From IMG/VR virus record IMGVR_UViG_646564533_000016: a stretch of 48,409 nucleotides of DNA, one strand, 5' to 3'. Positions within the stretch are counted from its first letter, which is position 1; each line of letters starts with the position of its first letter. Origin of the DNA: a virus (taxonomy: Duplodnaviria; Heunggongvirae; Uroviricota; Caudoviricetes). The translations under genes were made by a program, and so were the position numbers. The notes below the pieces were generated by a model, which searched no databases, was not told the DNA's origin, and saw only the letters and a program-made list of their open reading frames with translations. This document shows, piece by piece, positions 1,792 to 47,797 of this stretch.

Positions 1792-4700
1792 ATGCAATTC
1801 ATTACCAACGGCCCTGATATTCCTGATGAGCTTTTGCAGGCGCACGAGGAAGGGCGCGTTGTGTTCTTCTGTGGAGCAGGCATTTCCTACCCTGCTGGTT
1901 TACCTGGTTTCAAAGGGTTGGTAGAACTAATTTACCAGAGGAACGGAACAACACTTTCAGAAATTGAGCGTGAGGTTTTCGAGCGTGGGCAATTTGACGG
2001 CACATTAGATTTGCTGGAACGGCGCTTACCAGGGCAGCGTATAGCCGTCCGACGCGCGTTGGAAAAAGCCCTTAAGCCAAAGCTCCGTCGTAGGGGCGCT
2101 ATTGATACTCAGGCGGCGCTGTTACGTTTAGCCCGTAGCCGCGAGGGTGCCCTTCGATTGGTCACTACCAACTTTGACCGTCTCTTTCATGTGGCAGCTA
2201 AACGTACAGGCCAGGCTTTTCAGGCCTATGTAGCGCCGATGCTGCCAATTCCAAAAAACAGCCGCTGGGATGGACTTGTATACCTGCATGGGCTGTTACC
2301 GGAAAAGGCGGATGATACTGCCCTGAATCGTCTGGTTGTTACCAGCGGTGACTTTGGCTTGGCTTATCTCACTGAGCGTTGGGCAGCTCGCTTTGTGAGT
2401 GAGTTATTTCGTAACTATGTGGTCTGCTTCGTTGGCTACAGCATCAACGACCCGGTACTGCGCTACATGATGGATGCGCTTGCAGCAGATCGGAGGCTCG
2501 GTGAAGTCACACCACAAGTATGGGCACTGGGGGAGTGTGAGCCGGGGCAGGAGCACCGGAAAGCCATCGAGTGGGAGGCCAAAGGGGTCACTCCTATCCT
2601 TTACACCGTACCGGCGGGCTCCACTGATCATTCAGTGCTGCATCAAACGTTGCACGCTTGGGCAGATACTTATCGAGATGGTATACAGGGCAAAGAGGCT
2701 ATAGTCGTCAAACATGCTCTGGCCCGCCCGCAGGACAGCACTCGTCAGGACGATTTCGTTGGTCGGATGTTGTGGGCCTTGTCAGATAAATCAGGTTTAC
2801 CAGCAAAACGCTTTGCGGAACTCAATCCTGCTCCGCCGCTGGATTGGTTATTGAAAGCTTTCTCGGACGAACGATTTAAATACAGCGATCTGCCACGCTT
2901 TTGTGTATCTCCGCATGTCGAAATTGACCCGAAACTCCGATTCAGTCTGGTTCAGCGTCCTGCGCCCTATGAGCTGGCCCCGCAGATGTCGCTGGTTTCT
3001 GGATGTGTCAGTGCTAGCAAATGGGATGACGTAATGTCCCATATAGCCCGTTGGCTAGTTCGTTATCTGGGCGACCCTAGGTTGATCATATGGATTGCTG
3101 AACGCGGCGGACAAATACACGACCGTTGGATGTTTCTGATTGAGAGCGAACTAGATCGCTTAGCAGCACTGATGCGGGAGCGTAAGACTTCTGAGTTAGA
3201 TGAAATTCTCTTGCATTCCCCCCTGGCTATTCCTGGTCCACCTATGTCTACTTTATGGCGGCTTCTGCTTAGTGGTCGTGTGAAATCGCCATTGCAGAAC
3301 CTGGATTTGTATCGTTGGCAAAACCGCTTAAAGAATGAAGGCTTGACGACTACATTGCGCTTGGAGTTACGCGAGTTGCTTTCTCCCAAGGTTATGTTGA
3401 GGCGGCCGTTTCGCTATAGTGAAGACGATTCGAGCAGCACTGATGAACCCTTGCGAATCAAGCAATTGGTGGATTGGGAGCTGGTGCTGACTGCTGATTA
3501 CGTACGTTCAACCCTGTTCGACCTTGCTGACGAGTCATGGAAATCGTCCTTGCCATACCTGTTGGAAGATTTTCAGCAGTTGTTGCGTGATGCACTGGAC
3601 TTGTTGCGGGAGTTGGGAGAGTCCGACGATCGTCACGACCGCTCGCATTGGGATTTGCCGTCCATCGCTCCGCACTGGCAGAACCGGGGGTTCCGCGATT
3701 GGGTGAGCCTGATTGAATTACTTCGGGATTCATGGTTAGCCGTTCGAGCCAAAGACAGCGATCAGGCCACGCGCATTGCTCAGAATTGGTTTGAGTTGCC
3801 ATATCCCACCTTCAAACGTCTGGCACTGTTTGCCGCAAGCCAAGACAACTGCATACCACCTGAGCGGTGGGTTAATTGGTTGTTAGAGGACGGTTCATGG
3901 TGGTTGTGGGCCACGGATACTGGGCGAGAGGTATTCAGACTGTTTGTTTTGCAGGGACGACATCTGACAGGAATTGCACAAGAGCGTCTGGAAACTGCTA
4001 TCTTGGCAGGGCCTCCGCGCGAGATGTACGAGGATAATTTGGAAGCAGACAGGTGGCATTATTTGGTGGCTCATTCCGTCTGGTTGTGTCTAGCGAAGCT
4101 CAGGGGAGCGGGCCTTGTTTTGGGAGAGTCTGCGGCTACACGTTTGACGGAAATATCCACAGCATACCCAAAATGGCAACTGGCAACCAACGAGCGTGAT
4201 GAATTCTCTCACTGGATGAGCGGAACCGGTGATCCAGGCTTCGAGGAGAGTATAGATGTCGACATTGCGCCCCGTAAGTGGCAGGAATTAGTGCAATGGC
4301 TCGCAAAGCCTATGCCAGAAAGACTGCCTTTCTATGAGGACACTTGGAGTGATGTTTGCCGTACGCGCTTTTTTCACAGTCTGTATGCGTTACGTAAACT
4401 ATCACAAGATGATGTGTGGCCTGTTGGTCGGTGGCGTGAAGCTCTGCAGACTTGGGCTGAACCAGGGATGATTTTGCGTTCGTGGCGGTACGCCGCACCG
4501 TTGGTGCTTGACATGCCTGACGCAGTACTTCAGGAGATTTCCCTCGCTGTCACTTGGTGGATGGAGGAGGCTTCGAAGACCATCCTCTGCCACGAGGAGA
4601 TTCTACTGGCCCTTTGTCGTCGGGTTCTGATGATAGAAACAAGCCCAGAGTCTAGCACCATTCGAAACGGAATTGAGACCTATGATCCTGTTTCTACGGC

Positions 4701-5619
4701 GATCAATCATCCCATTGGGCATGTCACGCAATCACTGATCACCCTATGGTTCAAACAGAACCCGAATGACAATGATTTGCTTCCTGTTGAATTGAAAACA
4801 CTTTTCACCAAATTGTGTAATGTACAGATAGAGCTATTCCGCCATGGTCGGGTGTTGCTGGGGTCGCGGCTGATCGCATTTTTTCGCGTAGATCGACCTT
4901 GGACCGAACAGTATCTATTGCCCTTGTTTGCTTGGAGTAATCCCGTCGAAGCAAAAGCTGTGTGGGAAGGCTTCCTCTGGTCGCCACGCCTGTATGAACC
5001 GTTGCTGATAGCTTTCAAGTCAGATTTTTTGGAGAGCGCCAATCACTATTCTGATCTTGGCGAGCACCGGCAGCAATTCGCTACTTTCCTGACTTATGCA
5101 GCTCTGGGCCCTACCGAGGGATATACCGTGGAGGAGTTCCGAACGGCAATTAGTGCTCTTCCACAAGAAGGTCTGGAGGTAGCCGCGCAGGCGTTATACC
5201 AGGCACTTGAAGGTGCGGGCGATCAGCGCGAGGAGTATTGGAAAAATCGTGTCCAGCCATTTTGGCAACAGGTTTGGCCAAAGTCCCGCAACTTGGCCAC
5301 CCCACGCATATCCGAATCGTTGACTCGTATGGTGATTGCTGCCCGAGGTGAATTTCCGGCGGCTTTGGCAGTGGTGCAGGACTGGCTGCAACCGCTCGAA
5401 CACCTTAGCTACGACGTTCGCCTTTTGCTAAAATCAGATATTTGCAGCCGATATCCTGCGGACGCTCTATCCCTGCTGAATGCCGTGATTGCCGAACAAC
5501 ACTGGGGGCCTCGAGAGTTGGGGCAATGCTTGCTTCAAATTGTTCAAGCTGCTCCACAACTGGAGCAAGATGTTCGTTATCAGCGATTAAATGAATATTC
5601 TCGAAGGCGCAGCGTGTGA
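1792..5619 (+). CDS. Large SIR2-domain protein (SIR2_2-type N-terminal NADase domain plus ~950-aa helical W/L-rich C-terminal region); candidate defence-associated sirtuin (DSR-like) effector
   Basis: 1275 aa; strong RBS AGGAGG 8 nt before ATG; N-terminal motifs VVFFCGAGISYPAGLP, VTTNFDRL, VYLHG, VGYSINDP typical of the SIR2_2 family; no Walker A motif found; sits between int and xis. Confidence 0.85.
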   Translation: MQFITNGPDIPDELLQAHEEGRVVFFCGAGISYPAGLPGFKGLVELIYQRNGTTLSEIEREVFERGQFDGTLDLLERRLPGQRIAVRRALEKALKPKLRRRGAIDTQAALLRLARSREGALRLVTTNFDRLFHVAAKRTGQAFQAYVAPMLPIPKNSRWDGLVYLHGLLPEKADDTALNRLVVTSGDFGLAYLTERWAARFVSELFRNYVVCFVGYSINDPVLRYMMDALAADRRLGEVTPQVWALGECEPGQEHRKAIEWEAKGVTPILYTVPAGSTDHSVLHQTLHAWADTYRDGIQGKEAIVVKHALARPQDSTRQDDFVGRMLWALSDKSGLPAKRFAELNPAPPLDWLLKAFSDERFKYSDLPRFCVSPHVEIDPKLRFSLVQRPAPYELAPQMSLVSGCVSASKWDDVMSHIARWLVRYLGDPRLIIWIAERGGQIHDRWMFLIESELDRLAALMRERKTSELDEILLHSPLAIPGPPMSTLWRLLLSGRVKSPLQNLDLYRWQNRLKNEGLTTTLRLELRELLSPKVMLRRPFRYSEDDSSSTDEPLRIKQLVDWELVLTADYVRSTLFDLADESWKSSLPYLLEDFQQLLRDALDLLRELGESDDRHDRSHWDLPSIAPHWQNRGFRDWVSLIELLRDSWLAVRAKDSDQATRIAQNWFELPYPTFKRLALFAASQDNCIPPERWVNWLLEDGSWWLWATDTGREVFRLFVLQGRHLTGIAQERLETAILAGPPREMYEDNLEADRWHYLVAHSVWLCLAKLRGAGLVLGESAATRLTEISTAYPKWQLATNERDEFSHWMSGTGDPGFEESIDVDIAPRKWQELVQWLAKPMPERLPFYEDTWSDVCRTRFFHSLYALRKLSQDDVWPVGRWREALQTWAEPGMILRSWRYAAPLVLDMPDAVLQEISLAVTWWMEEASKTILCHEEILLALCRRVLMIETSPESSTIRNGIETYDPVSTAINHPIGHVTQSLITLWFKQNPNDNDLLPVELKTLFTKLCNVQIELFRHGRVLLGSRLIAFFRVDRPWTEQYLLPLFAWSNPVEAKAVWEGFLWSPRLYEPLLIAFKSDFLESANHYSDLGEHRQQFATFLTYAALGPTEGYTVEEFRTAISALPQEGLEVAAQALYQALEGAGDQREEYWKNRVQPFWQQVWPKSRNLATPRISESLTRMVIAARGEFPAALAVVQDWLQPLEHLSYDVRLLLKSDICSRYPADALSLLNAVIAEQHWGPRELGQCLLQIVQAAPQLEQDVRYQRLNEYSRRRSV

Positions 5620-5786
5620 AAGTGACAGGCGTTGGACAGTGCGAACTGTGGAGCCTAACAAGGTAAAGACACTCTAACTGATAATGCTGCGCCGCTCGTG
5701 CAATGCAATACAGTTTTTATCTAGCGGTGAATTATGGTGTTAAAAGTTAGCCCCTGACACAGGGTGGGTAGTTGGCTCTGTGTCAT

Positions 5787-5824
5787 TGATGGGTATTAGT
5801 TCTGATATGAGCTAATACCCATCA
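5787..5824. repeat. Perfect 13-bp inverted repeat (TGATGGGTATTAG / CTAATACCCATCA) with 12-nt loop, between the convergent SIR2 gene and xis
   Basis: Read directly; a second shorter inverted repeat (TGACACAG / CTGTGTCA) lies just upstream at about 5752..5784; neither is followed by a U-run. Confidence 0.6.
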
Positions 5825-6016
5825 CTCAATAACTCCAGCAAACCTGTATATCTTGCGTGATGCCCATTTATTTGGGCAGGATTTAATATCAGGATCTGGA
5901 AAGTCAGGCCTGTATTTCTGGCCAGTTCTCCTGTTTACGCTGTTCCAGCGAAGAACGGTCGATACTGAAACGCCACAGAAGTCGGCGACTTGTTTAGTTG
6001 TCATTAAGTTGTTCAT
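5822..6016 (-). CDS. AlpA/Xis-family excisionase or DNA-binding regulator (HTH)
   Basis: 64 aa; TTKQVADFCGVSVSTVLRW...FPDPD pattern typical of AlpA/Vis/Xis partners of P4-type integrases; strong SD AGGAGGTGA; ATG overlaps stop of upstream gene (TAATG). Confidence 0.7.
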   Translation of the reverse strand: MNNLMTTKQVADFCGVSVSTVLRWNSVNRRTGQKYRPDFPDPDIKSCPNKWASRKIYRFAGVIE

Positions 6017-6636
6017 TACTTCACCTCCTGCGGTGGCTCCGGTAGCGGCATCCAGTGGGTTACTTTCGATGCCGGTTCTTCCCCATCGTCAGTAACTGCC
6101 CACCATTTGTTTCTCGACCAATCGTAATACCCTTCGAAGATATCGTACTCAGTCCAGCCGTAAGACTTACCCCAACACCAAACATATTGTTTATCGTTCG
6201 GCATTCGCTCACTACAGCTTATCCAACCATCCGGAGTTACCGGAGAGTTGCCAGACAGCTTGTTCAACTTGTAAGTCTGGCTTACAGGTTTGACACCGTG
6301 AAGCATGGTGGCGCGGCAGGCGTTCCAGCCTTCATCAAAACCGACTATGCCATTATTTAAAGTCGGACGAGCATCTGGCACCACCGGCACTGGCTTGGCT
6401 ATATATAGCGGCTGAACATACCAGCCCTTTGATAACCAACTGTCAGCAATGTTTTTACTCCTGGTTATTGCTGGAATACCTAAGCCATTGTCTGAATGTA
6501 GCCATGCCACCGGCTCCTCTTCCAGCGATGCCAGAGCAATTTCATAAGCACGGCGCTCAATATCGTCTCGAACCTCCAGGCTGCTGATACGCTCTTTGAT
6601 TTCTTTAATCAGTTCTTTATCGGTAAATGTGGTCAT
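6016..6636 (-). CDS. Phage early protein, DUF551-like C-terminus (THWMPLPEPP)
   Basis: 206 aa ORF in early-left operon; C-terminal W-rich motif shared with the next gene. Confidence 0.75.
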   Translation of the reverse strand: MTTFTDKELIKEIKERISSLEVRDDIERRAYEIALASLEEEPVAWLHSDNGLGIPAITRSKNIADSWLSKGWYVQPLYIAKPVPVVPDARPTLNNGIVGFDEGWNACRATMLHGVKPVSQTYKLNKLSGNSPVTPDGWISCSERMPNDKQYVWCWGKSYGWTEYDIFEGYYDWSRNKWWAVTDDGEEPASKVTHWMPLPEPPQEVK

Positions 6637-6998
6637 TATGCTCCAGCCTCCGGTGCTTTTGGCATTACTGCCCAGTGAGTGATATTGACGCTTTCAATGT
6701 CCCCGACCTGAAATGTCCACTGCCATTCTCCGGTTTCTTTTTGTCCCCAGGTGTACCAGAGAGAACGCCAGCCAATCAGCCAGCCTTCTCCGTTAGCATC
6801 AAATAACAGAACACTTTCATTTGCTGGTGGTAGTTCAGCTGACACTGGTATTATTTTGTTTTCCAGTGCCGCACATTTAGCTTCAAGCGCATCGAATTTA
6901 CGTACTAGGTACTCAGCATTTGTTTCGTTCACTTTCAGATCTCGCGGTACACATTTCCCGCGAAGAAACCCTTCCATTTCGAAAACATTCATGCGCAT
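6636..6998 (-). CDS. Phage early protein, DUF551-like (YfdS-like by size and position)
   Basis: 120 aa; C-terminal ITHWAVMPKAPE motif; start/stop overlap with neighbours. Confidence 0.7.
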   Translation of the reverse strand: MRMNVFEMEGFLRGKCVPRDLKVNETNAEYLVRKFDALEAKCAALENKIIPVSAELPPANESVLLFDANGEGWLIGWRSLWYTWGQKETGEWQWTFQVGDIESVNITHWAVMPKAPEAGA

Positions 6999-7525
6999 TT
7001 GCGTAACTCCGATAACTCGTTAAAACGTTCCATAAACATCCCGTAGGCATGGCCTGGAGCCAGTGGAATCACTTTGAACATCTCTGTTGCCGGGATACCT
7101 TCCAATACAGGCCAGAAAGAGCCATCATCAAGTCCGAGATCGCGGCGTTCGGTTGCCAGCATGATGAGATCGGCATATTTCACTGGCGTGCTCATAACAG
7201 GAGGTAACCCGTATTTCTCACGGATTACGGCGTCTATTTTTTCTTCCATCCGTTTATAGTCAGGAAGAAGGCGTTTCAGTGGTGCGGGGATGTCCTGGCA
7301 ATATGCTTCTGTTGCATCATGCATTAACGCTTCAAAAGCAAATTCCTGCGGTACCAGCTGGCTGCAAAGCACCGCATGTTGGGCGACGCTGTAGAAGTGT
7401 GAAAGATGTCCTGCAAAGCGACAGATATTTGAAAGGGAAACCGCGATATCGTTAATCACGATGTCGTCTTTATTTATCCTGTCATAATAAAAATGCTTCC
7501 CGGAAAAAGTTTTAATAAATGACAT
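6989..7525 (-). CDS. yfdR: HD-domain phosphohydrolase (YfdR-like 5'-deoxynucleotidase)
   Basis: H...HD motif (QHAVL...MHDATEAY); ATG at 7525 has SD GGAG and gives 178 aa; the ORF track's longer 7552 start is a GTG without RBS. Confidence 0.75.
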   Translation of the reverse strand: MSFIKTFSGKHFYYDRINKDDIVINDIAVSLSNICRFAGHLSHFYSVAQHAVLCSQLVPQEFAFEALMHDATEAYCQDIPAPLKRLLPDYKRMEEKIDAVIREKYGLPPVMSTPVKYADLIMLATERRDLGLDDGSFWPVLEGIPATEMFKVIPLAPGHAYGMFMERFNELSELRKCA

Positions 7526-8542: not shown

Positions 8543-8905
8543 TTAATGACCTGCTGCGCGGAGTTTTCCGTCAGGTTCACCAGCAAGAGTCAGTAATTGT
8601 CCCTGGTCTTCCTGCAGAATAGTCAGGCGACCACCGCGATTGACATACATCGGCGTTTCGGTGGTGTCTTCTTCGGAAATTTTCCCGCGGTTAGTCGGGC
8701 GAACATACGAGAGTTTGTGTTTGATTTTCACACGATTCTCATCAAACGGTTCGATTTCCAGGTTGAGCGAGACCTTACCTTTGGTTTTCGTGTTCATCAC
8801 ACCGGAAGCGACTTCACTGAGAACTGCGCCGATTTTGGTTTCAAATACGCCGCCGTCCAGCTCCCCAATAAATGCCTGCACATCAGTACTGCGTTCGCTA
8901 GCCAT
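8543..8905 (-). CDS. Phage early protein (YfdP-like by size and position), first gene of the early-left operon
   Basis: Internal ATG at 8905 (MASERSTDVQAF...) with SD GGAG; 120 aa; the upstream extension to 9136 lacks an RBS. Confidence 0.65.
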   Translation of the reverse strand: MASERSTDVQAFIGELDGGVFETKIGAVLSEVASGVMNTKTKGKVSLNLEIEPFDENRVKIKHKLSYVRPTNRGKISEEDTTETPMYVNRGGRLTILQEDQGQLLTLAGEPDGKLRAAGH

Positions 8906-19899: not shown

Positions 19900-20921
<1,022 letters not shown>

Positions 20922-37816: not shown

Positions 37817-38560
37817 ATGACTGAGACAGAATCAGCGATTCTGGCGCACGCCCGGCGATGTGCGCCAGCGGAGTCGTGCGGCTTCGTGGTGAGAGCGCCG
37901 GAGGGGGAAAGATATTTCCCCGGCGTGAATATCTCCGGTGAGCCGGAGGATTATTTCCGTATGTCGCCGGAAGACTGGCTGCAGGCAGAAATGCAGGGTG
38001 AGATTGTGGCGCTGGTCCACAGCCACCCCGGTGGTCTGCCCTGGCTGAGTGAGGCCGACCGGCGGCTGCAGGTGCAGAGTGATTTGCCGTGGTGGCTGGT
38101 CTGCCGGGGGACGATTCACAAGTTCCGCTGTGTGCCGCATCTCACCGGGCGGCGCTTTGAGCACGGGGTGACGGACTGTTACACGCTGTTCCGGGATGCT
38201 TATCATCTGGCGGGGATTGAGATGCCGAATTTTCATCGCGGGGATGACTGGTGGCGTCACGGTCAGAATCTCTATCTGGATAATCTGGAGGCCACAGGGC
38301 TGTATCAGGTGCCGTTGTCATCAGCACAACCGGGCGATGTGCTGCTGTGCTGTTTTGGTTCATCGGTGCCGAATCATGCCGCCATTTACTGTGGTGATGG
38401 CGAGCTGCTGCACCATATTCCTGAACAACTGAGCAAACGAGAGAGGTACACCGACAAATGGCAGCGACGCACACACTCCCTCTGGCGTCACCGGGCATGG
38501 CGCGCATCTGCCTTTACGGGGATTTACAACGATTTGGCCGCCGCATCGACCTTCGTGTGA
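37817..38560 (+). CDS. K: Tail tip assembly protein K (JAB/MPN plus NlpC/P60-like)
   Basis: HSHP motif (JAB-like); Cys/His residues later; ATG at 37817. Confidence 0.9.
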   Translation: MTETESAILAHARRCAPAESCGFVVRAPEGERYFPGVNISGEPEDYFRMSPEDWLQAEMQGEIVALVHSHPGGLPWLSEADRRLQVQSDLPWWLVCRGTIHKFRCVPHLTGRRFEHGVTDCYTLFRDAYHLAGIEMPNFHRGDDWWRHGQNLYLDNLEATGLYQVPLSSAQPGDVLLCCFGSSVPNHAAIYCGDGELLHHIPEQLSKRERYTDKWQRRTHSLWRHRAWRASAFTGIYNDLAAASTFV

Positions 38561-39099
38561 AAACGGGGGCTGAAGCCATCCGGGCACTGGCCACGCAGCT
38601 TCCGGCGTTTCGCCAGAAACTGAATGAGGGCTGGTATCAGGTGCGCATTTCCGGGCGTGATACAGGCGAAAACGAATTATCTGCCCGTCTTAATGAGCCG
38701 CTGGCAAATGGTGCCGTGATCCACATCGTACCGCGTCTGGCGGGTGCCAAAAGTGGCGGTATTTTTCAGGCAGTGCTGGGTGCGGCGCTAATTGCTACGG
38801 CAATCTGGATGCCGGGGCTTAGTATTGTTGCAAGTAATCTCATGTTCTCTCTTGGGGCAGGTATGGTTTTAGGCGGTGTTGCGCAGATGCTGGCACCGAA
38901 AGCCAAAACGCCTAAAGTGTCAGCCACTGATAACGGTAAGCAAAATACCTATTTTTCCTCATTGGATAACATGGTTGCCCAGGGCAATGTCCTGCCTGTT
39001 CTGTACGGTGAAATGCGCGTGGGGTCACGTGTGGCATCTCAGGAGATCAGCACGGCAGATGAAGGGGATGGTGGTCAGGTTGTGGTAATTGGGCGGTAA
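38458..39099 (+). CDS. I: Tail tip assembly protein I
   Basis: MAATHTLPLASPGMARICLYGDLQRFGRRIDLRVKTGAEAIRALATQLPAFRQKL...GGQVVVIGR matches lambda gpI. Confidence 0.9.
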   Translation: MAATHTLPLASPGMARICLYGDLQRFGRRIDLRVKTGAEAIRALATQLPAFRQKLNEGWYQVRISGRDTGENELSARLNEPLANGAVIHIVPRLAGAKSGGIFQAVLGAALIATAIWMPGLSIVASNLMFSLGAGMVLGGVAQMLAPKAKTPKVSATDNGKQNTYFSSLDNMVAQGNVLPVLYGEMRVGSRVASQEISTADEGDGGQVVVIGR

Positions 39100-39171
39100 T
39101 ATTATTTACTCATGTTCTAACTGATTTAATATTTATATCGAACACTGATAATTATTCTGTTGGTTAGCTAT

Positions 39172-39510
39172 ATGAACAAAACGATTTTATTCTGCACGAT
39201 TATTGCCTTAACAGGATGTAAATCTTTGGATTACGTAAAATCCGGCAAGCCTGTAATGGAAGGTAATTCATTAAAAAATATTGATGAATTGTCAGGCTGC
39301 ATATCCAGACAATGGGCTGGTAATGGAACACCTATAACATCCATTCCTATTGAGAATGGGGTAAGCCTTTTAGTTCCACAGGCTATGGGTGGGTATGATG
39401 TTGTGCTTGATATCAAAAAAGCAGGAAATGGCAGTAGTTTTACTCTTTATGAACGCGTACCAGCATTAACGCCAAAAATTTTTGCTGATAGTGTTAATGC
39501 ATGTAAATAA
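39172..39510 (+). CDS. Lipoprotein moron (signal peptide plus lipobox LTGC) inserted between I and J; candidate superinfection-exclusion / receptor-masking factor
   Basis: MNKTILFCTIIALTGC; markedly AT-rich block (39100..39530) inside a GC-rich tail operon; own terminator downstream. Confidence 0.75.
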   Translation: MNKTILFCTIIALTGCKSLDYVKSGKPVMEGNSLKNIDELSGCISRQWAGNGTPITSIPIENGVSLLVPQAMGGYDVVLDIKKAGNGSSFTLYERVPALTPKIFADSVNACK

Positions 39511-39533
39511 TAGTTAATCCTGCCGTAACTCAT

Positions 39534-39560
39534 GAGCCGCCTTTTGGGCGGCTTTGTTGT
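39534..39560 (+). terminator. Intrinsic terminator after the lipoprotein moron, just upstream of the J RBS
   Basis: GAGCCGCC-TTTTG-GGCGGCTT hairpin then TGTTGTTTAT. Confidence 0.65.
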
Positions 39561-39573
39561 TTATGGAGTGTGA

Positions 39574-42975
<3,402 letters not shown>

Positions 42976-43694: not shown

Positions 43695-43705
43695 GTGGGG
43701 TGAAT

Positions 43706-46534
43706 ATGGCAGTAAAGATTTCAGGTGTACTGAAAGACGGTGCAGGTAAACCGGTACAGAACTGCACAATCCAGCTGAAAGCAAAACGTAACAGCACCAC
43801 GGTGGTGGTGAACACGGTGGCATCTGAAAATCCGGATGAAGCAGGGCGTTACAGCATGGACGTTGAGCACGGCCAGTACAGCGTTATTCTGTTGGTGGAG
43901 GGATTCCCGCCGTCACATGCCGGGACCATCACCGTGTATGAAGATTCTCAACCCGGTACGCTGAATGATTTTCTCGGTGCCATGACGGAGGATGATGCCC
44001 GTCCGGAGGCACTGCGCCGTTTTGAACTGATGGTGGAAGAGGTGGCGCGTAACGCGTCCGCAGTGGCACAGGACACGGCAGCCGCGAAGAAGTCAGCCAG
44101 CGATGCCGGCACATCAGCCCGTGAGGCGGCAACCCATGCGACTGATGCTGCAGGCTCAGCACGCGCAGCCAGCACGTCAGCCGGACAGGCCGCGTCGTCG
44201 GCTCAGTCAGCGTCTTCCAGCGCAGGAACGGCATCAGCAAAGGCCACTGAAGCATCAAAAAGTGCTGCCGCTGCAGAGTCCTCAAAAAGCGCGGCGGCTA
44301 CCAGTGCCGGTGCGGCGAAAACGTCAGAAACGAATGCGGCAGCGTCACAACAATCAGCAGCCACTTCTGCATCCACCGCGACCACGAAAGCGTCAGAAGC
44401 AGCCACTTCAGCACGGGATGCGTCGGCTTCAAAAGAGGCAGCGAAATCATCAGAAACGAACGCATCCTCGAGCGCCAGTAGTTCCGCTTCCTCGGCAACG
44501 GCGGCAGCAAATTCCGCGAAGGCGGCAAAAACGTCCGAGACGAACGCCAGGTCTTCTGAAACGGCAGCGGGACAGAGTGCCTCAGCTGCGGCAGGCTCAA
44601 AAACAGCGGCTGCATCATCTGCCAGTGCCGCGTCAACAAGTGCCGGGCAGGCCTCAGCCAGTGCCACCGCCGCCGGAAAATCGGCAGAAAGTGCTGCATC
44701 GTCTGCTTCAACAGCCACAACGAATGCTGGCGAAGCCGCTGTACAGGCCAGCGCAGCAGCGAGGTCTGCTTCCGCAGCGAAGACATCCGAGACGAACGCG
44801 AAAGCGTCGGAAACCAGCGCAGAATCCTCAAAAACGGCTGCCGCATCGTCCGCCAGTTCGGCGGCGTCATCGGCATCATCTGCGTCTGCTTCAAAAGATG
44901 AGGCGACCAGACAGGCGTCAGCAGCAAAGGGCAGCGCCACGACGGCATCCACGAAGGCGACAGAGGCAGCTGGCAGTGCGACGGCGGCAGCTCAGAGCAA
45001 AAGTACGGCGGAATCCGCGGCAACGCGCGCCGAGACAGCGGCAAAACGGGCAGAGGATATTGCATCCGCCGTGGCGCTTGAGGATGCGAGCACGACGAAA
45101 AAGGGGATAGTACAGCTCAGCAGTGCGACTAACAGCACTTCCGAGTCACTGGCGGCAACGCCAAAAGCCGTTAAGGCCGCGTATGACCTGGCTAGCGGGA
45201 AATATACCGCTCAGGACGCTACGACAGCACAAAAAGGAATTGTCCAGCTCAGTAGTGCAACCAACAGCGCATCTGAAACGCTTGCTGCGACACCGAAAGC
45301 AGTGAAAGCAGCTAATGACAATGCGAATGGTCGGGTACCTTCTGCCCGTAAGGTGAATGGTAAGGCGCTTTCAGCGGATATAACACTGACACCGAAAGAT
45401 ATTGGTACGCTTAACTCAACAACTATGTCATTTAGCGGTGGTGCTGGTTGGTTCAAATTAGCAACGGTAACCATGCCGCAGGCGAGTTCTGTTGTTTCAA
45501 TTACGTTGATTGGTGGGGCTGGATATAACGTCGGTTCACCTCAACAGGCAGGTATATCTGAACTTGTTTTGCGTGCAGGTAATGGTAACCCGAAGGGGAT
45601 TACTGGTGCTTTATGGCAGCGCACTTCGGCAGGGTTTACAAATTTTGCCTGGGTCAATACATCTGGTGATACTTACGATATTTACGTTGCAATCGGAAAT
45701 TATGCGACTGGTGTAAATATTCAATGGGATTATACCAGTAATGCCAGCGTGACGATTCATACGTCACCAGCATATTCTGCTAATAAGCCGGAAGGGTTAA
45801 CGGACGGTACAGTTTATTCACTCTATACGCCATCAGAGCAGTTTTATCCGCCTGGCGCACCAATCCCGTGGCCATCGGATACCGTTCCGTCTGGTTATGC
45901 CCTGATGCAGGGGCAGACTTTTGACAAATCTGCCTACCCGAAACTTGCAGTCGCTTATCCGTCAGGCGTGATCCCTGATATGCGTGGCTGGACGATTAAG
46001 GGCAAGCCCGCCAGTGGTCGTACCGTATTGTCTCAGGAACAGGACGGCATTAAATCGCACACCCACAGCGCCAGCGCATCCAGTACGGATTTGGGTACGA
46101 AAACCACATCGTCGTTTGATTACGGCACTAAATCCACGAATAACACCGGGGCGCATACGCACAGTCTGAGCGGCTCTACAAGCTCGGCCGGAGCACACTC
46201 GCACGTTGATGGTCGCAGGTTTAATACAAGCACTTTTAAAGACACCTATCAGTATGGTTCTACAGCTGTCGGAAGTAACTCATACCAGGTACAAGGGGCG
46301 GTTGGTCTGGGCATTGGCACGATGGCGAATACGAACTCTGCTGGCGCGCATACCCACTCACTGTCCGGCACTGCTGCAAGCGCAGGTGCACACGCACATA
46401 CTGTCGGTATTGGTGCTCATACGCACTCCGTTGCGATTGGCTCACATGGACACACCATCACCGTTAACGCTGCTGGTAACGCGGAAAACACCGTCAAAAA
46501 CATCGCATTTAACTATATTGTGAGGCTTGCATAA
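43706..46534 (+). CDS. stf: Side tail fibre protein Stf (full length) with Ala/Ser-rich repeat shaft and His-rich C-terminal motifs
   Basis: [38 protein letters not shown]... matches lambda Stf; KTSETNA repeats; AHTHSLSG motifs. Confidence 0.93.
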
Positions 46535-47109
46535 TGGCATTCAGAATGAGTGAACAAGCACGGACCATAAAAATTTATAATCTGCTGGCCGGAACTAATG
46601 AATTTATTGGTGAAGGTGACGCATATATTCCGCCTCATACAGGTCTGCCAGCAAACAGTACCGATATTGCACCGCCAGATATTCCGGCTGGCTTCGTGGC
46701 TGTTTTCAACAGTGATGAGTCATCGTGGCATCTCGTTGAAGATCATCGGGGTAAAACGGTTTATGACGTGGCTTCCGGCGATGCGTTATTTATTTCTGAA
46801 CTCGGTCCGTTACCGGAAAATGTTACCTGGTTATCGCCGGAAGGGGAGTTTCAGAAGTGGAACGGCACAGCCTGGGTGAAGGATACGGAAGCAGAAAAAC
46901 TGTTCCGGATCCGGGAGGCGGAAGAAACAAAAAACAACCTGATGCAGGTAGCCAGTGAGCATATTGCGCCGCTTCAGGATGCTGCAGATCTGGAAATTGC
47001 AACGGAGGAAGAAATCTCGTTGCTGGAAGCATGGAAAAAGTATCGGGTATTGCTGAACCGTGTTGATACGTCAACTGCACAGGATATTGAATGGCCAGCA
47101 CTGCCGTAG
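46534..47109 (+). CDS. tfa: Tail fibre assembly protein Tfa
   Basis: 191 aa; TAATG overlap with stf; lambda tfa position. Confidence 0.9.
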
Positions 47110-47206: not shown

Positions 47207-47797
47207 TTATATGTCAGGTGTCTGAAGTTTTGCTTTGGCTCTTAAAATGGTTTGCCGCGAGGTTTTGAATTCCCGGGCAATGGCACTTATACTTACACCT
47301 GACTTAATTCGTTCGAATACCACCTGTTTCTGTTCTTCATTTAACACAGGTGGTCGACCAAAACGTTTCCCTGCGCCGCGGGCTCTTACTATCCCGGAAT
47401 GAGTGCGTTCAAGTAAAAGGTCTCGTTCAAATTCAGCGACTGCTGAAATTACTTGCATCATCATTTTTCCTGTTGGACTGGTCAGGTCAATGCCCCCCAA
47501 TGCTAAGCAATGCACTCTGATACCTGTTTCGGTCAGTTGTTCCACTGTTTTCCTGATATCCATTGCATTACAACCAAGGCGATCCAGTTTTGTCACAATC
47601 AATTGATCACCACATTTCAGGCGAGCAAGCAACCGGTTAAAACCAGGACGCTCACTGGTTGCTGCTGAGCCGCTAATGTGTTCTTCGATTATTTGCTGAG
47701 GTTTGATTTTAAAACCTGCACTTTCGATTTCCCGGCGTTGATTTTCGGTGGTCTGATCCAGCGTTGATATCCGACAGTAAGCAAAAATTCGAGACAT
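47207..47797 (-). CDS. pin: Serine recombinase / DNA invertase, Pin (Hin/Gin) family
   Basis: [20 protein letters not shown] (catalytic Ser region) and C-terminal HTH ([19 protein letters not shown]). Confidence 0.92.

What the first reader, a model, noticed from the sequence alone, without database searches (positions are those of the whole stretch)
39100..39560. Low-GC lipoprotein moron with its own terminator inserted between tail genes I and J
A 113-aa lipoprotein (signal peptide plus lipobox LTGC) sits in a sharply AT-rich block inside a GC-rich tail operon that is otherwise collinear with lambda, which has no gene between I and J as far as I recall. Its terminator ends just before the J RBS. 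Phage-encoded lipoproteins of this size and context (Cor, Llp) are known to block the phage's own receptor, so this is a candidate superinfection-exclusion or host-surface factor. I do not recognise the sequence itself.
Basis: partly seen in the sequence, partly recalled or inferred. Interest (0 to 1): 0.6.

Follow-up and report, generated by a model that had tools for sequence, protein, structure and literature searches.

The report
Uncharacterised lipoprotein gene inserted between tail genes
A lambda-like prophage carries an extra, AT-rich gene between tail genes I and J that encodes an outer-membrane lipoprotein of an unstudied phage-borne family; it is a new cargo in a known insertion slot and a reasonable but untested candidate for blocking infection by other phages.

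Summary
A 112-aa (not 113) lipoprotein ORF at 39172-39510 (+), lipobox LTGC, has 37% GC against 56-58% flanks and lies between I and J of a tail operon collinear with lambda. The insert is absent from all 107 lambda-like phage records that share the flanks. It occurs at 349 of about 8,686 lambda-type I-J junctions in complete E. coli genomes.

One correction: the hairpin before J is not demonstrably the gene's own. The same hairpin sits between I and J in lambda, ev207, 4C10, Fraca and N15, which have no gene there. No consensus promoter was found.

The protein belongs to phrog_914 (function unknown), with no Pfam family. About 116 divergent clusters share an invariant lipobox Cys and two further Cys. 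It is unrelated to Cor, Llp, Bor or the mEp Lpp proteins.

Relatives occupy three tail-operon junctions (T|H, K|I, I|J), which HK97 already uses for morons. Near-identical copies travel with at least four different J receptor-binding domains. This argues against a mask tuned to the phage's own receptor.

Best guess, at moderate confidence: an envelope-level phage-exclusion lipoprotein acting on a step common to lambda-like tail tips. It is a new member of a known kind, of moderate interest.

The parts
38458..39099 (+). Tail tip gene I (upstream flank), 213 aa
   Evidence: Pfam Lambda_tail_I, E 1.7e-23. The C-terminal 50 aa are identical to lambda gpI except one residue. Homology to lambda ends at the stop codon.
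39100..39171 (+). AT-rich 5' part of the insert, with no consensus promoter and a weak ribosome-binding site
   Evidence: GC 0.30. No + strand site reaches 9 of 12. Best candidates are TTTACT-17-AATATT and TTTAAT-16-GATAAT at 8 of 12 (and reading). 4 of 72 positions vary among 58 copies.
39172..39510 (+). Lipoprotein gene, 112 aa, family phrog_914. Signal peptide is residues 1-15, the lipobox LTGC is at 39208-39219, and the mature protein starts at Cys16 (39217).
   Evidence: RefSeq CDS. phrog_914, E 5.7e-33 over the full length. C16, C43 and C111 are invariant. AF2 pLDDT is 84. 11 synonymous against 6 non-synonymous polymorphisms.
39108..39114 (+). Left copy of the 7-bp direct repeat ACTCATG that brackets the insert
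   Evidence: Read. Chance is not excluded.
39528..39534 (+). Right copy of the 7-bp direct repeat ACTCATG, at the right edge of the non-homology with lambda
   Evidence: Read.
39534..39564 (+). Intrinsic-terminator-like hairpin plus T-rich tail. It is homologous to the I-J junction hairpin of lambda-like phages that lack the insert.
   Evidence: (-16.7 kcal/mol, z -4.1). Lambda, ev207 and 4C10 carry AAACCGCC-TGCG-GGCGGTTTTGTC(A/G)TTTATGGAG at the same place. Also seen in Fraca, L004 and L005 and annotated in N15.
39565..39576 (+). J ribosome-binding region (GGAG..GAGG)
   Evidence: Identical to lambda except one base.
39577..42975 (+). Gene J (central tail fibre, host specificity), 1132 aa. 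The last ~130 aa are a non-lambda receptor-binding domain.
   Evidence: 87-100% identical to lambda J up to about aa 1000, then about 40%. This receptor-binding domain type is shared with many Stx phages that lack the lipoprotein.

Best explanation
A gene cassette of foreign, AT-rich origin lies in the I|J junction of a lambda-type tail operon. This junction, like T|H and K|I, is an established moron slot in HK97.

The cassette encodes a 112-aa prolipoprotein. After signal peptidase II cleavage and lipidation at Cys16, with Lys at +2 and no Asp, it is predicted to be sorted by Lol to the outer membrane. The roughly 95-aa mature domain is a compact beta-alpha-beta4-alpha fold, probably locked by a Cys43-Cys111 disulfide.

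It is co-oriented with the late operon, so it would be made at least during lytic growth through Q-antiterminated read-through. Whether it is also expressed from the repressed prophage is not shown.

Most likely function (inferred): envelope-level exclusion of incoming siphophages, and/or protection of progeny from cell debris, exerted from the periplasmic face of the outer membrane.

The same protein is linked to several different J receptor-binding domains, and the family clusters next to K, I and H. In lambda, the I and H products are reported to open the tail tip, insert in the outer membrane and build the periplasmic conduit. I therefore favour interference with a step common to lambda-like tail tips over a mask tailored to one receptor. 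Candidate steps are tip opening, gpI insertion, gpH channel formation, or a shared envelope factor.

Shown: gene, insertion, composition, lipoprotein signal, family, contexts, purifying selection. Inferred: localisation, timing of expression, function and target.
For: Insertion and composition.

A real, selected gene: 58 copies in 25 haplotypes show 11 synonymous against 6 non-synonymous changes. Homologues at 47-61% identity occur in Enterobacter, Kluyvera, Jejubacter, Yersinia and Serratia. There are 116 clusters at E<=1e-3, all about 110 aa, with invariant C16, C43 and C111.

The AF2 model is confident, pLDDT 84.

Strongly phage-borne:
- I|J in more than 55 IMG/VR E. coli viral contigs.
- K|I, immediately upstream of I, in Fraca, LMessi, Kluyvera L004, L080, L008/L081, L011, Yersinia L090/L091 and L094/L095.
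- T|H in Enterobacter phages.
- Pseudomonas phage AH14a p33, the best structural match (E 1.5e-5, TM 0.83), lies directly upstream of a second copy of tail protein I.
- Always co-oriented with the tail genes.

Independence from receptor type: at least 4 J C-terminal types among carriers of a 98-100% identical protein.

Precedents:
- Lipoproteins in the structural cluster of mEp phages exclude phages when expressed alone (PMC11893012).
- The HK97 gp15 exclusion moron occupies the T|H slot (its function is from my knowledge of Cumby et al. 2012).
- gpI is a tail-tip plug whose hydrophobic helices may insert in the outer membrane, and gpH* forms the periplasmic channel (PMC11101478; PMC12617516).
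Against: - There is no functional evidence at all. Every source names the family 'hypothetical' or 'lipoprotein', PHROG lists it as unknown function, and PADLOC has no match.
- No consensus promoter was found, so expression in lysogens, which classical superinfection exclusion needs, is unproven.
- Clustering at T|H, K|I and I|J may only reflect that these are the permissive junctions for any cargo. HK97 carries unrelated morons there.
- Some distant members lie outside tail operons: next to helicase and antirepressor genes in L085, near an HTH gene in L012, and one is chromosomal in Shimwellia blattae next to ecotin. This is compatible with a general envelope role.
- None of 50,697 phage records carries the E. 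coli-type gene.
Confidence: 0.45

Rival explanations
1. Cor/Llp-type receptor mask. The lipoprotein binds the outer-membrane protein used by this phage's J and makes it unavailable. This excludes phages that use that receptor and spares progeny from debris.
For: It is a small outer-membrane lipoprotein gene directly abutting J. Precedents are N15/phi80 Cor next to tail-fibre genes, T5 Llp (my knowledge; PMC9586334 listed), and mEp010 Lpp010, which lies just downstream of J and excludes LamB-dependent phages including lambda.
Against: There is no sequence or fold relation to Cor, Llp, Lpp021 or Lpp010. The same protein (98-100% identical) is linked to at least 4 different J C-terminal domains, one with an unrelated C-terminus. 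Many phages with this window's J receptor-binding domain lack the gene. In most other lineages the gene is separated from J by I, or lies at T|H.
Confidence: 0.2
2. Host-benefit cargo unrelated to phages. The lipoprotein would alter envelope properties of the lysogen, such as serum or stress resistance, adhesion, or inhibition of a periplasmic enzyme, as Bor/Iss does.
For: Lambdoid prophages carry such lipoproteins; iss is present in a sibling prophage. A chromosomal, non-prophage homologue lies next to ecotin in Shimwellia blattae. The closest solved fold is Flpp3, deposited under the title 'F. tularensis Virulence Determinant'. The gene is present in 6% of E. coli genomes from many hosts.
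Against: There is no homology to Bor/Iss or any Pfam or NCBIfam family. The family spans phages of Escherichia, Enterobacter, Yersinia, Kluyvera and Pseudomonas with very different niches, and keeps a tail-operon address. No autonomous promoter is evident. Carriers show no pathotype or host restriction.
Confidence: 0.2
3. A function in the lytic cycle only, or none. The gene could be a late-expressed helper (for example modulating lysis, or stopping progeny from re-adsorbing to debris) or a hitch-hiking gene kept by linkage to I and J.
For: It is embedded in, and co-oriented with, the late operon without a recognisable promoter. 3 of 58 copies are frameshifted. It is dispensable, being absent from about 96% of junctions.
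Against: The polymorphism pattern indicates purifying selection, 11 synonymous against 6 non-synonymous. Cys residues and fold are conserved across 116 divergent clusters. The gene has landed independently at three junctions, which argues for a selected function.
Confidence: 0.1

Closest known systems
Morons of HK97 at T|H (gp15), K|I and I|J (gp22, gp23), in the sense of Juhala/Hendrix
   Same: Extra genes are wedged between tail genes that are adjacent in lambda, at the same three junctions this family uses. Each is followed by a hairpin just before the next tail gene. Composition is foreign.
   Different: The cargo is unrelated: hhalign probability against gp22 is 0.4%, and gp22 has no signal peptide. 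A promoter of its own is not demonstrated here. The hairpin is shared with insert-free phages.
Cor (N15 gene 24, phi80, T1; phrog_1119)
   Same: A phage-encoded small lipoprotein in the tail region. The proposed role is exclusion of incoming phages.
   Different: Cor is 78 aa and lies downstream of J. The only similarity is the signal peptide and lipobox, 29 aligned columns. It belongs to a different PHROG. Cor is tied to FhuA-dependent phages, whereas this gene is not tied to one J receptor-binding domain.
T5 Llp (PDB 8a60_B, 'lytic conversion lipoprotein')
   Same: A lipoprotein encoded next to the receptor-binding gene. It acts from the periplasmic side of the outer membrane (my knowledge of van den Berg et al. 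2022).
   Different: The sequence match covers the signal peptide only, E 0.84. It is not among the structural matches. Its size and fold differ.
mEp021 Lpp021 and mEp010 Lpp010 (PMC11893012)
   Same: Lipoprotein genes inside the structural cluster of temperate coliphages. They were shown by expression to exclude OmpA- or LamB-dependent phages.
   Different: They are 71 and 81 aa, lie downstream of J on the opposite strand, belong to different PHROGs, and show no homology beyond the lipobox.
Bor/Iss serum-resistance lipoproteins
   Same: Outer-membrane lipoproteins carried as cargo by lambdoid prophages.
   Different: There is no Pfam Bor match. Their location differs: they lie near the lysis genes.
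Flpp3 / DUF3568, DUF302 and BamC N-domain folds
   Same: A two-helix, five-strand alpha/beta sandwich. Flpp3 and BamC are also lipoproteins.

Membership tests
Moron (autonomous accessory transcription unit in a phage operon) | Extra gene between two genes that are adjacent in related phages | tested here: met
   Lambda, ev207, 4C10 and 107 phage records have I and J separated by only about 60 bp. The insert is at 349 of 8,686 junction places in E. coli genomes.
Moron (autonomous accessory transcription unit in a phage operon) | Nucleotide composition different from the surrounding operon | tested here: met
   GC 0.37 against 0.56 and 0.58. The same holds for homologues in other phages.
Moron (autonomous accessory transcription unit in a phage operon) | Own promoter | tested here: inconclusive
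   No + strand sigma-70 match reaches 9 of 12. The only candidates score 8 of 12 in AT-rich DNA.
Moron (autonomous accessory transcription unit in a phage operon) | Own terminator | tested here: inconclusive
   A strong hairpin is present, but a homologous hairpin exists at the I-J junction without any insert. Family members at other junctions are also followed by a hairpin.
Moron (autonomous accessory transcription unit in a phage operon) | Expressed from the repressed prophage | not testable with these tools
   This needs RNA-seq or 5'-RACE of a lysogen.
Bacterial lipoprotein (signal peptidase II substrate, outer-membrane sorted) | Lipobox [LVI][ASTVI][GAS]C after a basic n-region and a hydrophobic h-region | tested here: met
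   MNK-TILFCTIIA-LTG-C. The Cys is invariant and the lipobox is conserved in 54 relatives.
Bacterial lipoprotein (signal peptidase II substrate, outer-membrane sorted) | No Asp at +2 (Lol release to the outer membrane, E. coli rule) | tested here: met
   Lys17 and Ser18. The rule itself comes from established knowledge.
Bacterial lipoprotein (signal peptidase II substrate, outer-membrane sorted) | Actual lipidation and localisation | not testable with these tools
   This needs globomycin or palmitate labelling and cell fractionation.
phrog_914 (unknown function) | Full-length profile match | tested here: met
   E 5.7e-33, residues 1-112 on profile positions 1-118 of 118. Fraca and Enterobacter homologues match the same PHROG.
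Cor superinfection-exclusion family (phrog_1119) | Sequence homology to Cor | tested here: not met
   No PHROG hit other than 914 at E<=1. hhalign against N15 Cor aligns only the signal peptide. As a positive control, N15 Cor hits phrog_1119 at 3.4e-32.
Cor superinfection-exclusion family (phrog_1119) | Blocks FhuA-dependent adsorption | not testable with these tools
   This needs plating and adsorption assays.
T5 Llp family | Sequence or fold similarity to Llp | tested here: not met
mEpimmI Lpp exclusion lipoproteins (types A and C) | Sequence homology | tested here: not met
   hhalign probability is 19% and 40.5%, lipobox only. They belong to phrog_4281 and phrog_12984.
Bor/Iss | Match to the Pfam Bor family | tested here: not met
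   No Pfam family at E<=1, and none in 54 relatives.
Conserved structural tail component | Present in all or most lambda-like tail operons and lacking an export signal | tested here: not met
   It is present at about 4% of junctions, absent from all lambda-like phage records, and has a signal peptide.

The most novel reading that the evidence does not exclude
phrog_914 lipoproteins would be a receptor-independent superinfection-exclusion system. Anchored in the inner leaflet of the outer membrane, they would intercept the ejected tail-tip proteins of lambda-like siphophages: the gpI plug with its hydrophobic helices, the gpH conduit, or the K peptidase. DNA entry would be blocked after normal adsorption. 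This would explain three things: the genetic linkage to I, K and H; the Pseudomonas phage AH14a pairing of a homologue with a duplicated I gene; and the indifference to the J receptor-binding domain. It would be an outer-membrane counterpart of HK97 gp15 and T4 Spackle.
Probability: 0.2. Interest if true: 0.7.

Novelty: new member of a known kind. Interest (0 to 1): 0.4.

Why it matters
About 6% of complete E. coli genomes carry this gene, as do many Enterobacter, Yersinia, Kluyvera and Serratia prophages, and nobody has studied it.

If it excludes phages, it adds a widespread resistance determinant that is invisible to current defence-finder catalogues (no PADLOC hit). That would matter for phage therapy host-range prediction.

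If it acts after adsorption on the gpI/gpH conduit, it would be a genetic handle on how lambda DNA crosses the outer membrane and periplasm, a step that recent cryo-EM work leaves open.

If it turns out to be an ordinary cargo lipoprotein, the result still documents that I|J, K|I and T|H are shared cargo slots. It also shows that the hairpin before J is a resident junction element rather than part of the cargo.

Tried and rejected
- Pfam, NCBIfam and PADLOC gave nothing for the protein. The only hit was a weak VirB7 match confined to the signal peptide. Pfam on 54 relatives gave only stray hits.
- A PDB profile search found signal-peptide matches only.
- Rfam on 38800-39800 found nothing near threshold.
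- The genome-contig scan returned one locus, from Kluyvera. Alignments A3 and A6 were too divergent for locus scans. The clade-B scan gave one locus.
- The P0006 look-up was not on record. P0019 came without DNA.
- Two papers that looked promising do not concern this gene. The phiv142-3 orf10 knockout primers do not match this locus, and the LF82 paper mentions a lipoprotein only once, Bor.
- Rejected: a tail structural protein, because it has an export signal and is rare.
- Rejected: a spanin. The window's Rz1-type lipoprotein is at 20623-20877.
- Rejected: membership of Cor, Llp or Bor.
- Rejected: 'own terminator'.
- I considered that the I variants linked to the gene might reveal co-variation. 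Carriers have two I variants differing in the hydrophobic segment, which is uninformative.

Full report
**1. What is there**

Between the stop codon of tail gene I (38458-39099) and the start of J (39577) lies a 477-bp spacer that contains one convincing ORF on the + strand. The ORF listing reports 39160..39510 with a TTG start. The in-frame ATG at 39172 gives a 112-aa product, MNKTILFCTIIALTG|CKSLDYV..., and RefSeq annotates exactly these coordinates in an identical E. coli prophage as hypothetical protein WP_153274582.1.

The N-terminus is a textbook lipoprotein signal: a basic n-region, a hydrophobic core, the lipobox L-T-G-C, and Lys at +2, which by the E. coli Lol rule predicts outer-membrane sorting. 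A scan of the whole window for such signals finds only this ORF and the Rz1-type spanin at 20623-20877.

GC falls to 0.30 at 39100-39299 and stays near 0.40 to 39599, inside an operon at 0.50-0.66. The gene is 0.37 GC against 0.56 and 0.58 in the flanking kilobases.

The window is a complete lambdoid prophage, with integrase, Q, lysis, head and tail genes, lom, stf/tfa and an invertase. Its structural half is about 96% identical in DNA to Lambda_4C10, 1W and phage 21. J is 88.5% identical to lambda J, near-identical up to about residue 1000 and only about 40% identical in the C-terminal receptor-binding part.

**2. It is an insertion**

Lambda has 60 bp between I and J. An alignment with lambda shows that homology stops at the I stop codon and resumes at the hairpin in front of J.

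All 107 phage records that match 38900-39700 match only the two flanks. In complete E. coli genomes the insert occurs at 349 places in 337 of 5,426 genomes, always between 'tail assembly protein' and gpJ in the rows shown. The lambda-type I-J junction occurs at 8,686 places in 4,286 genomes. The insert therefore occupies about 4% of junctions, so it is accessory and not a conserved tail component.

A 7-bp direct repeat, ACTCATG (39108-39114 and 39528-39534), brackets the insert. This could be chance.

**3. The terminator is real but not demonstrably the gene's own**

The hairpin at 39534-39554 plus its T-rich tail is detected by the scan. It is much more stable than shuffles: -16.7 kcal/mol, z -4.1.

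However, lambda, ev207 and 4C10 have no gene here and carry AAACCGCC-TGCG-GGCGGTTTTGTC(A/G)TTTATGGAG at the same position. One stem position differs from the window's hairpin by a compensatory change (A-T to G-C), and the downstream sequence is near-identical.

The I-J junctions of Fraca, LMessi, an Enterobacter phage and a Kluyvera prophage have the same kind of hairpin. N15 and HK97 annotate it as a putative terminator. The insert therefore sits upstream of a resident junction hairpin, or recombined within it.

At the family level, every copy I examined is followed by a similar hairpin just before the next tail gene. The question of 'own' against 'resident' remains open.

On the 5' side no + strand sigma-70 site reaches 9 of 12 matches. 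The best candidates score 8 of 12 in AT-rich DNA, and the ribosome-binding site is weak. Autonomous expression, the defining property of a moron, is thus not shown. Q-antiterminated late transcription would read through the gene in any case (established lambda biology).

**4. The protein family**

- Pfam, NCBIfam and PADLOC give nothing.
- PHROGs gives one full-length match, phrog_914, function unknown, E 5.7e-33.
- The word-index search finds near-identical E. coli proteins and 47-61% relatives in Jejubacter, Enterobacter and metagenomes.
- An exhaustive profile search finds 116 clusters at E<=1e-3, almost all 105-125 aa.
- A 54-sequence alignment has three invariant columns: the lipobox Cys and two further Cys (C43, C111). 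P27, K35, W48 and G63 are nearly invariant. This pattern fits an exported, disulfide-bonded domain.
- No member matches a Pfam family beyond stray hits. Source names are 'hypothetical protein' or 'lipoprotein', from Yersinia, Serratia, Shimwellia and others.
- Among 58 E. coli-type copies (25 haplotypes) there are 11 synonymous and 6 non-synonymous differences, which indicates purifying selection. Three copies are frameshifted.
- AlphaFold2 gives a confident model, pLDDT 84, of a beta-alpha-beta4-alpha sandwich.
- In the viral structure library the one significant match is a 93-aa protein of Pseudomonas phage phiAH14a, E 1.5e-5, TM 0.83.

**5. Where relatives sit**

- *I|J.* The E. coli type (98-100% identical) is always between I and J, in more than 55 IMG/VR contigs.
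- *K|I.* Relatives at 27-58% identity lie between K and I, immediately upstream of I. They occur in phages Fraca and LMessi, a Kluyvera prophage, several metagenomic phages, Yersinia prophages and others.
- *T|H.* In an Enterobacter clade the gene lies between T and the tape-measure gene H.
- *Pseudomonas phage AH14a.* The 93-aa match fits ORF 33, which is directly upstream of a second copy of tail protein I outside the tail operon (PMC4936722).
- *Outside tail operons.* Some distant members are elsewhere: an early region with helicase and antirepressor genes, a position next to an HTH gene, and a chromosomal, non-prophage site next to ecotin in Shimwellia blattae.

In all tail-operon cases the gene is co-oriented with the tail genes.

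The HK97 record annotates unrelated morons at these junctions: gp15 at T|H, and gp22 and gp23 at I|J. K|I holds a small unannotated ORF with a hydrophobic stretch, followed by an annotated terminator. This is therefore a new cargo in known slots. Fraca carries a second, unrelated lipoprotein (phrog_2320) next to the homologue.

**6. Comparison with known exclusion lipoproteins**

- N15 Cor (78 aa, downstream of J) hits phrog_1119 and aligns with this family only over the signal peptide.
- T5 Llp matches residues 1-19 only.
- The mEp021 and mEp010 lipoproteins exclude OmpA- or LamB-dependent phages, including lambda, when expressed alone (PMC11893012). They are 71 and 81 aa, lie downstream of J on the other strand, and are unrelated.
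- That paper states that no lipoprotein of a lambdoid phage had been reported to exclude lambda.

Membership in Cor, Llp, mEp Lpp or Bor is rejected. The 'works like' question stays open.

**7. Mechanism**

It predicts linkage between the lipoprotein and the receptor-binding domain of J.

Among 37 carriers with a complete J, the last 140 residues fall into at least four types at a 90% threshold: 24, 7, 3 (including the window) and 2 loci. The last type has an unrelated C-terminus. The lipoprotein stays 98-100% identical throughout. The window's J receptor-binding domain type is common in Stx phages that lack the gene. In other lineages the gene is next to I, K or H rather than J.

Recent structures describe gpI as the trimeric plug of the lambda tail tip. 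Its hydrophobic helices may insert in the outer membrane on opening, and gpH* forms the periplasmic channel (PMC11101478; PMC12617516).

An inner-leaflet outer-membrane lipoprotein is well placed to interfere with that step. The HK97 gp15 moron at T|H and T4 Spackle are precedents for post-adsorption exclusion (my knowledge).

I therefore favour envelope-level exclusion acting on a step common to lambda-like tips, and I hold this loosely. The junction preference may only reflect where cargo is tolerated, expression in lysogens is unproven, and a chromosomal homologue hints at a general envelope role.

Confidence assigned to each explanation (0 to 1):

| Explanation | Confidence |
|---|---|
| Exclusion in the broad sense | 0.45 |
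| Exclusion by the post-adsorption route specifically (a sub-case of the broad sense; the novel reading) | 0.20 |
| Receptor mask | 0.20 |
| Host-benefit cargo | 0.20 |
| Lytic-only function or none | 0.10 |

**8. Verdict**

The feature is a new member of a known kind, a lipoprotein cargo gene in a lambdoid tail-operon moron slot, belonging to an uncharacterised and fairly widespread family. Interest is moderate. It is a cheap, well-defined target for an exclusion assay, with a modest chance of revealing a receptor-independent block of lambda-type DNA delivery.

Noticed in passing
window 1792-5616 (+): A 1275-aa protein with a SIR2_2 domain lies immediately after the integrase (386-1606). It is a candidate anti-phage defence cargo at the prophage end.
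   Followed up: no
window 47207-47794 (-): A Pin/Hin-type serine invertase (Resolvase + HTH_7) lies right after the side tail fibre and assembly genes (43700-47109). This suggests invertible host-range switching.
   Followed up: no
window 39108-39114 and 39528-39534: A 7-bp direct repeat, ACTCATG, brackets the inserted block. It could be microhomology left by the insertion or by a deletion, or it could be chance.
   Followed up: partly
window 39534-39576; L082 (lambda) 2460-2505; L001 (Fraca) 4350-4385 and 5005-5040; L096 (HK97) 5797-5836: A hairpin followed by TTTTTTTATGG(A/G)G recurs just before I and before J in several siphophages. In Fraca the copies before I and before J are nearly identical over about 30 nt, so I is flanked by direct repeats. 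This may be a recombination or junction element for cargo exchange.
   Followed up: partly
L096 (HK97) 204-392, 5500-5835, 6476-7130: HK97 annotates morons and terminators at T|H and I|J, and an annotated terminator with a small unannotated ORF at K|I. These are the same three junctions this lipoprotein family uses.
   Followed up: yes
L001 (Fraca) 3725-3994: A second, unrelated lipoprotein (89 aa, lipobox IVGC, phrog_2320) lies directly upstream of the phrog_914 homologue between K and I. Pseudomonas phages AH14a and AH14b also pair a 140-aa lipoprotein with gene I.
   Followed up: partly
L005 5960-6003 (Enterobacter prophage, T|H copy): An inverted repeat, CCTCC-TTACTTCT-GGAGG, pairs the Shine-Dalgarno sequence of the homologue with an anti-SD. 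This suggests translational control.
   Followed up: no
L092 5001-5339 (Shimwellia blattae CP001560): A chromosomal, non-prophage homologue (38% identity) lies between a YidB-family gene and ecotin, near copCD-yebY.
   Followed up: no
L069, L070, L071 (IMG/VR E. coli contigs): Three of 58 E. coli-type copies carry frameshifts, an occasional decay of the gene.
   Followed up: partly
phage collection as a whole: None of 50,697 phage records carries the E. coli-type gene, although 337 of 5,426 E. coli genomes and more than 55 IMG/VR prophage contigs do. About 4 would be expected from the 4% junction frequency and the 107 matching phage records.
   Followed up: no
window 42523-42972 (J C-terminus): The window's receptor-binding domain differs from lambda's (about 40% identity) and is 98-100% identical to that of many long-tailed Stx1a and Stx2a converting phages. 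Its receptor was not identified here.
   Followed up: partly
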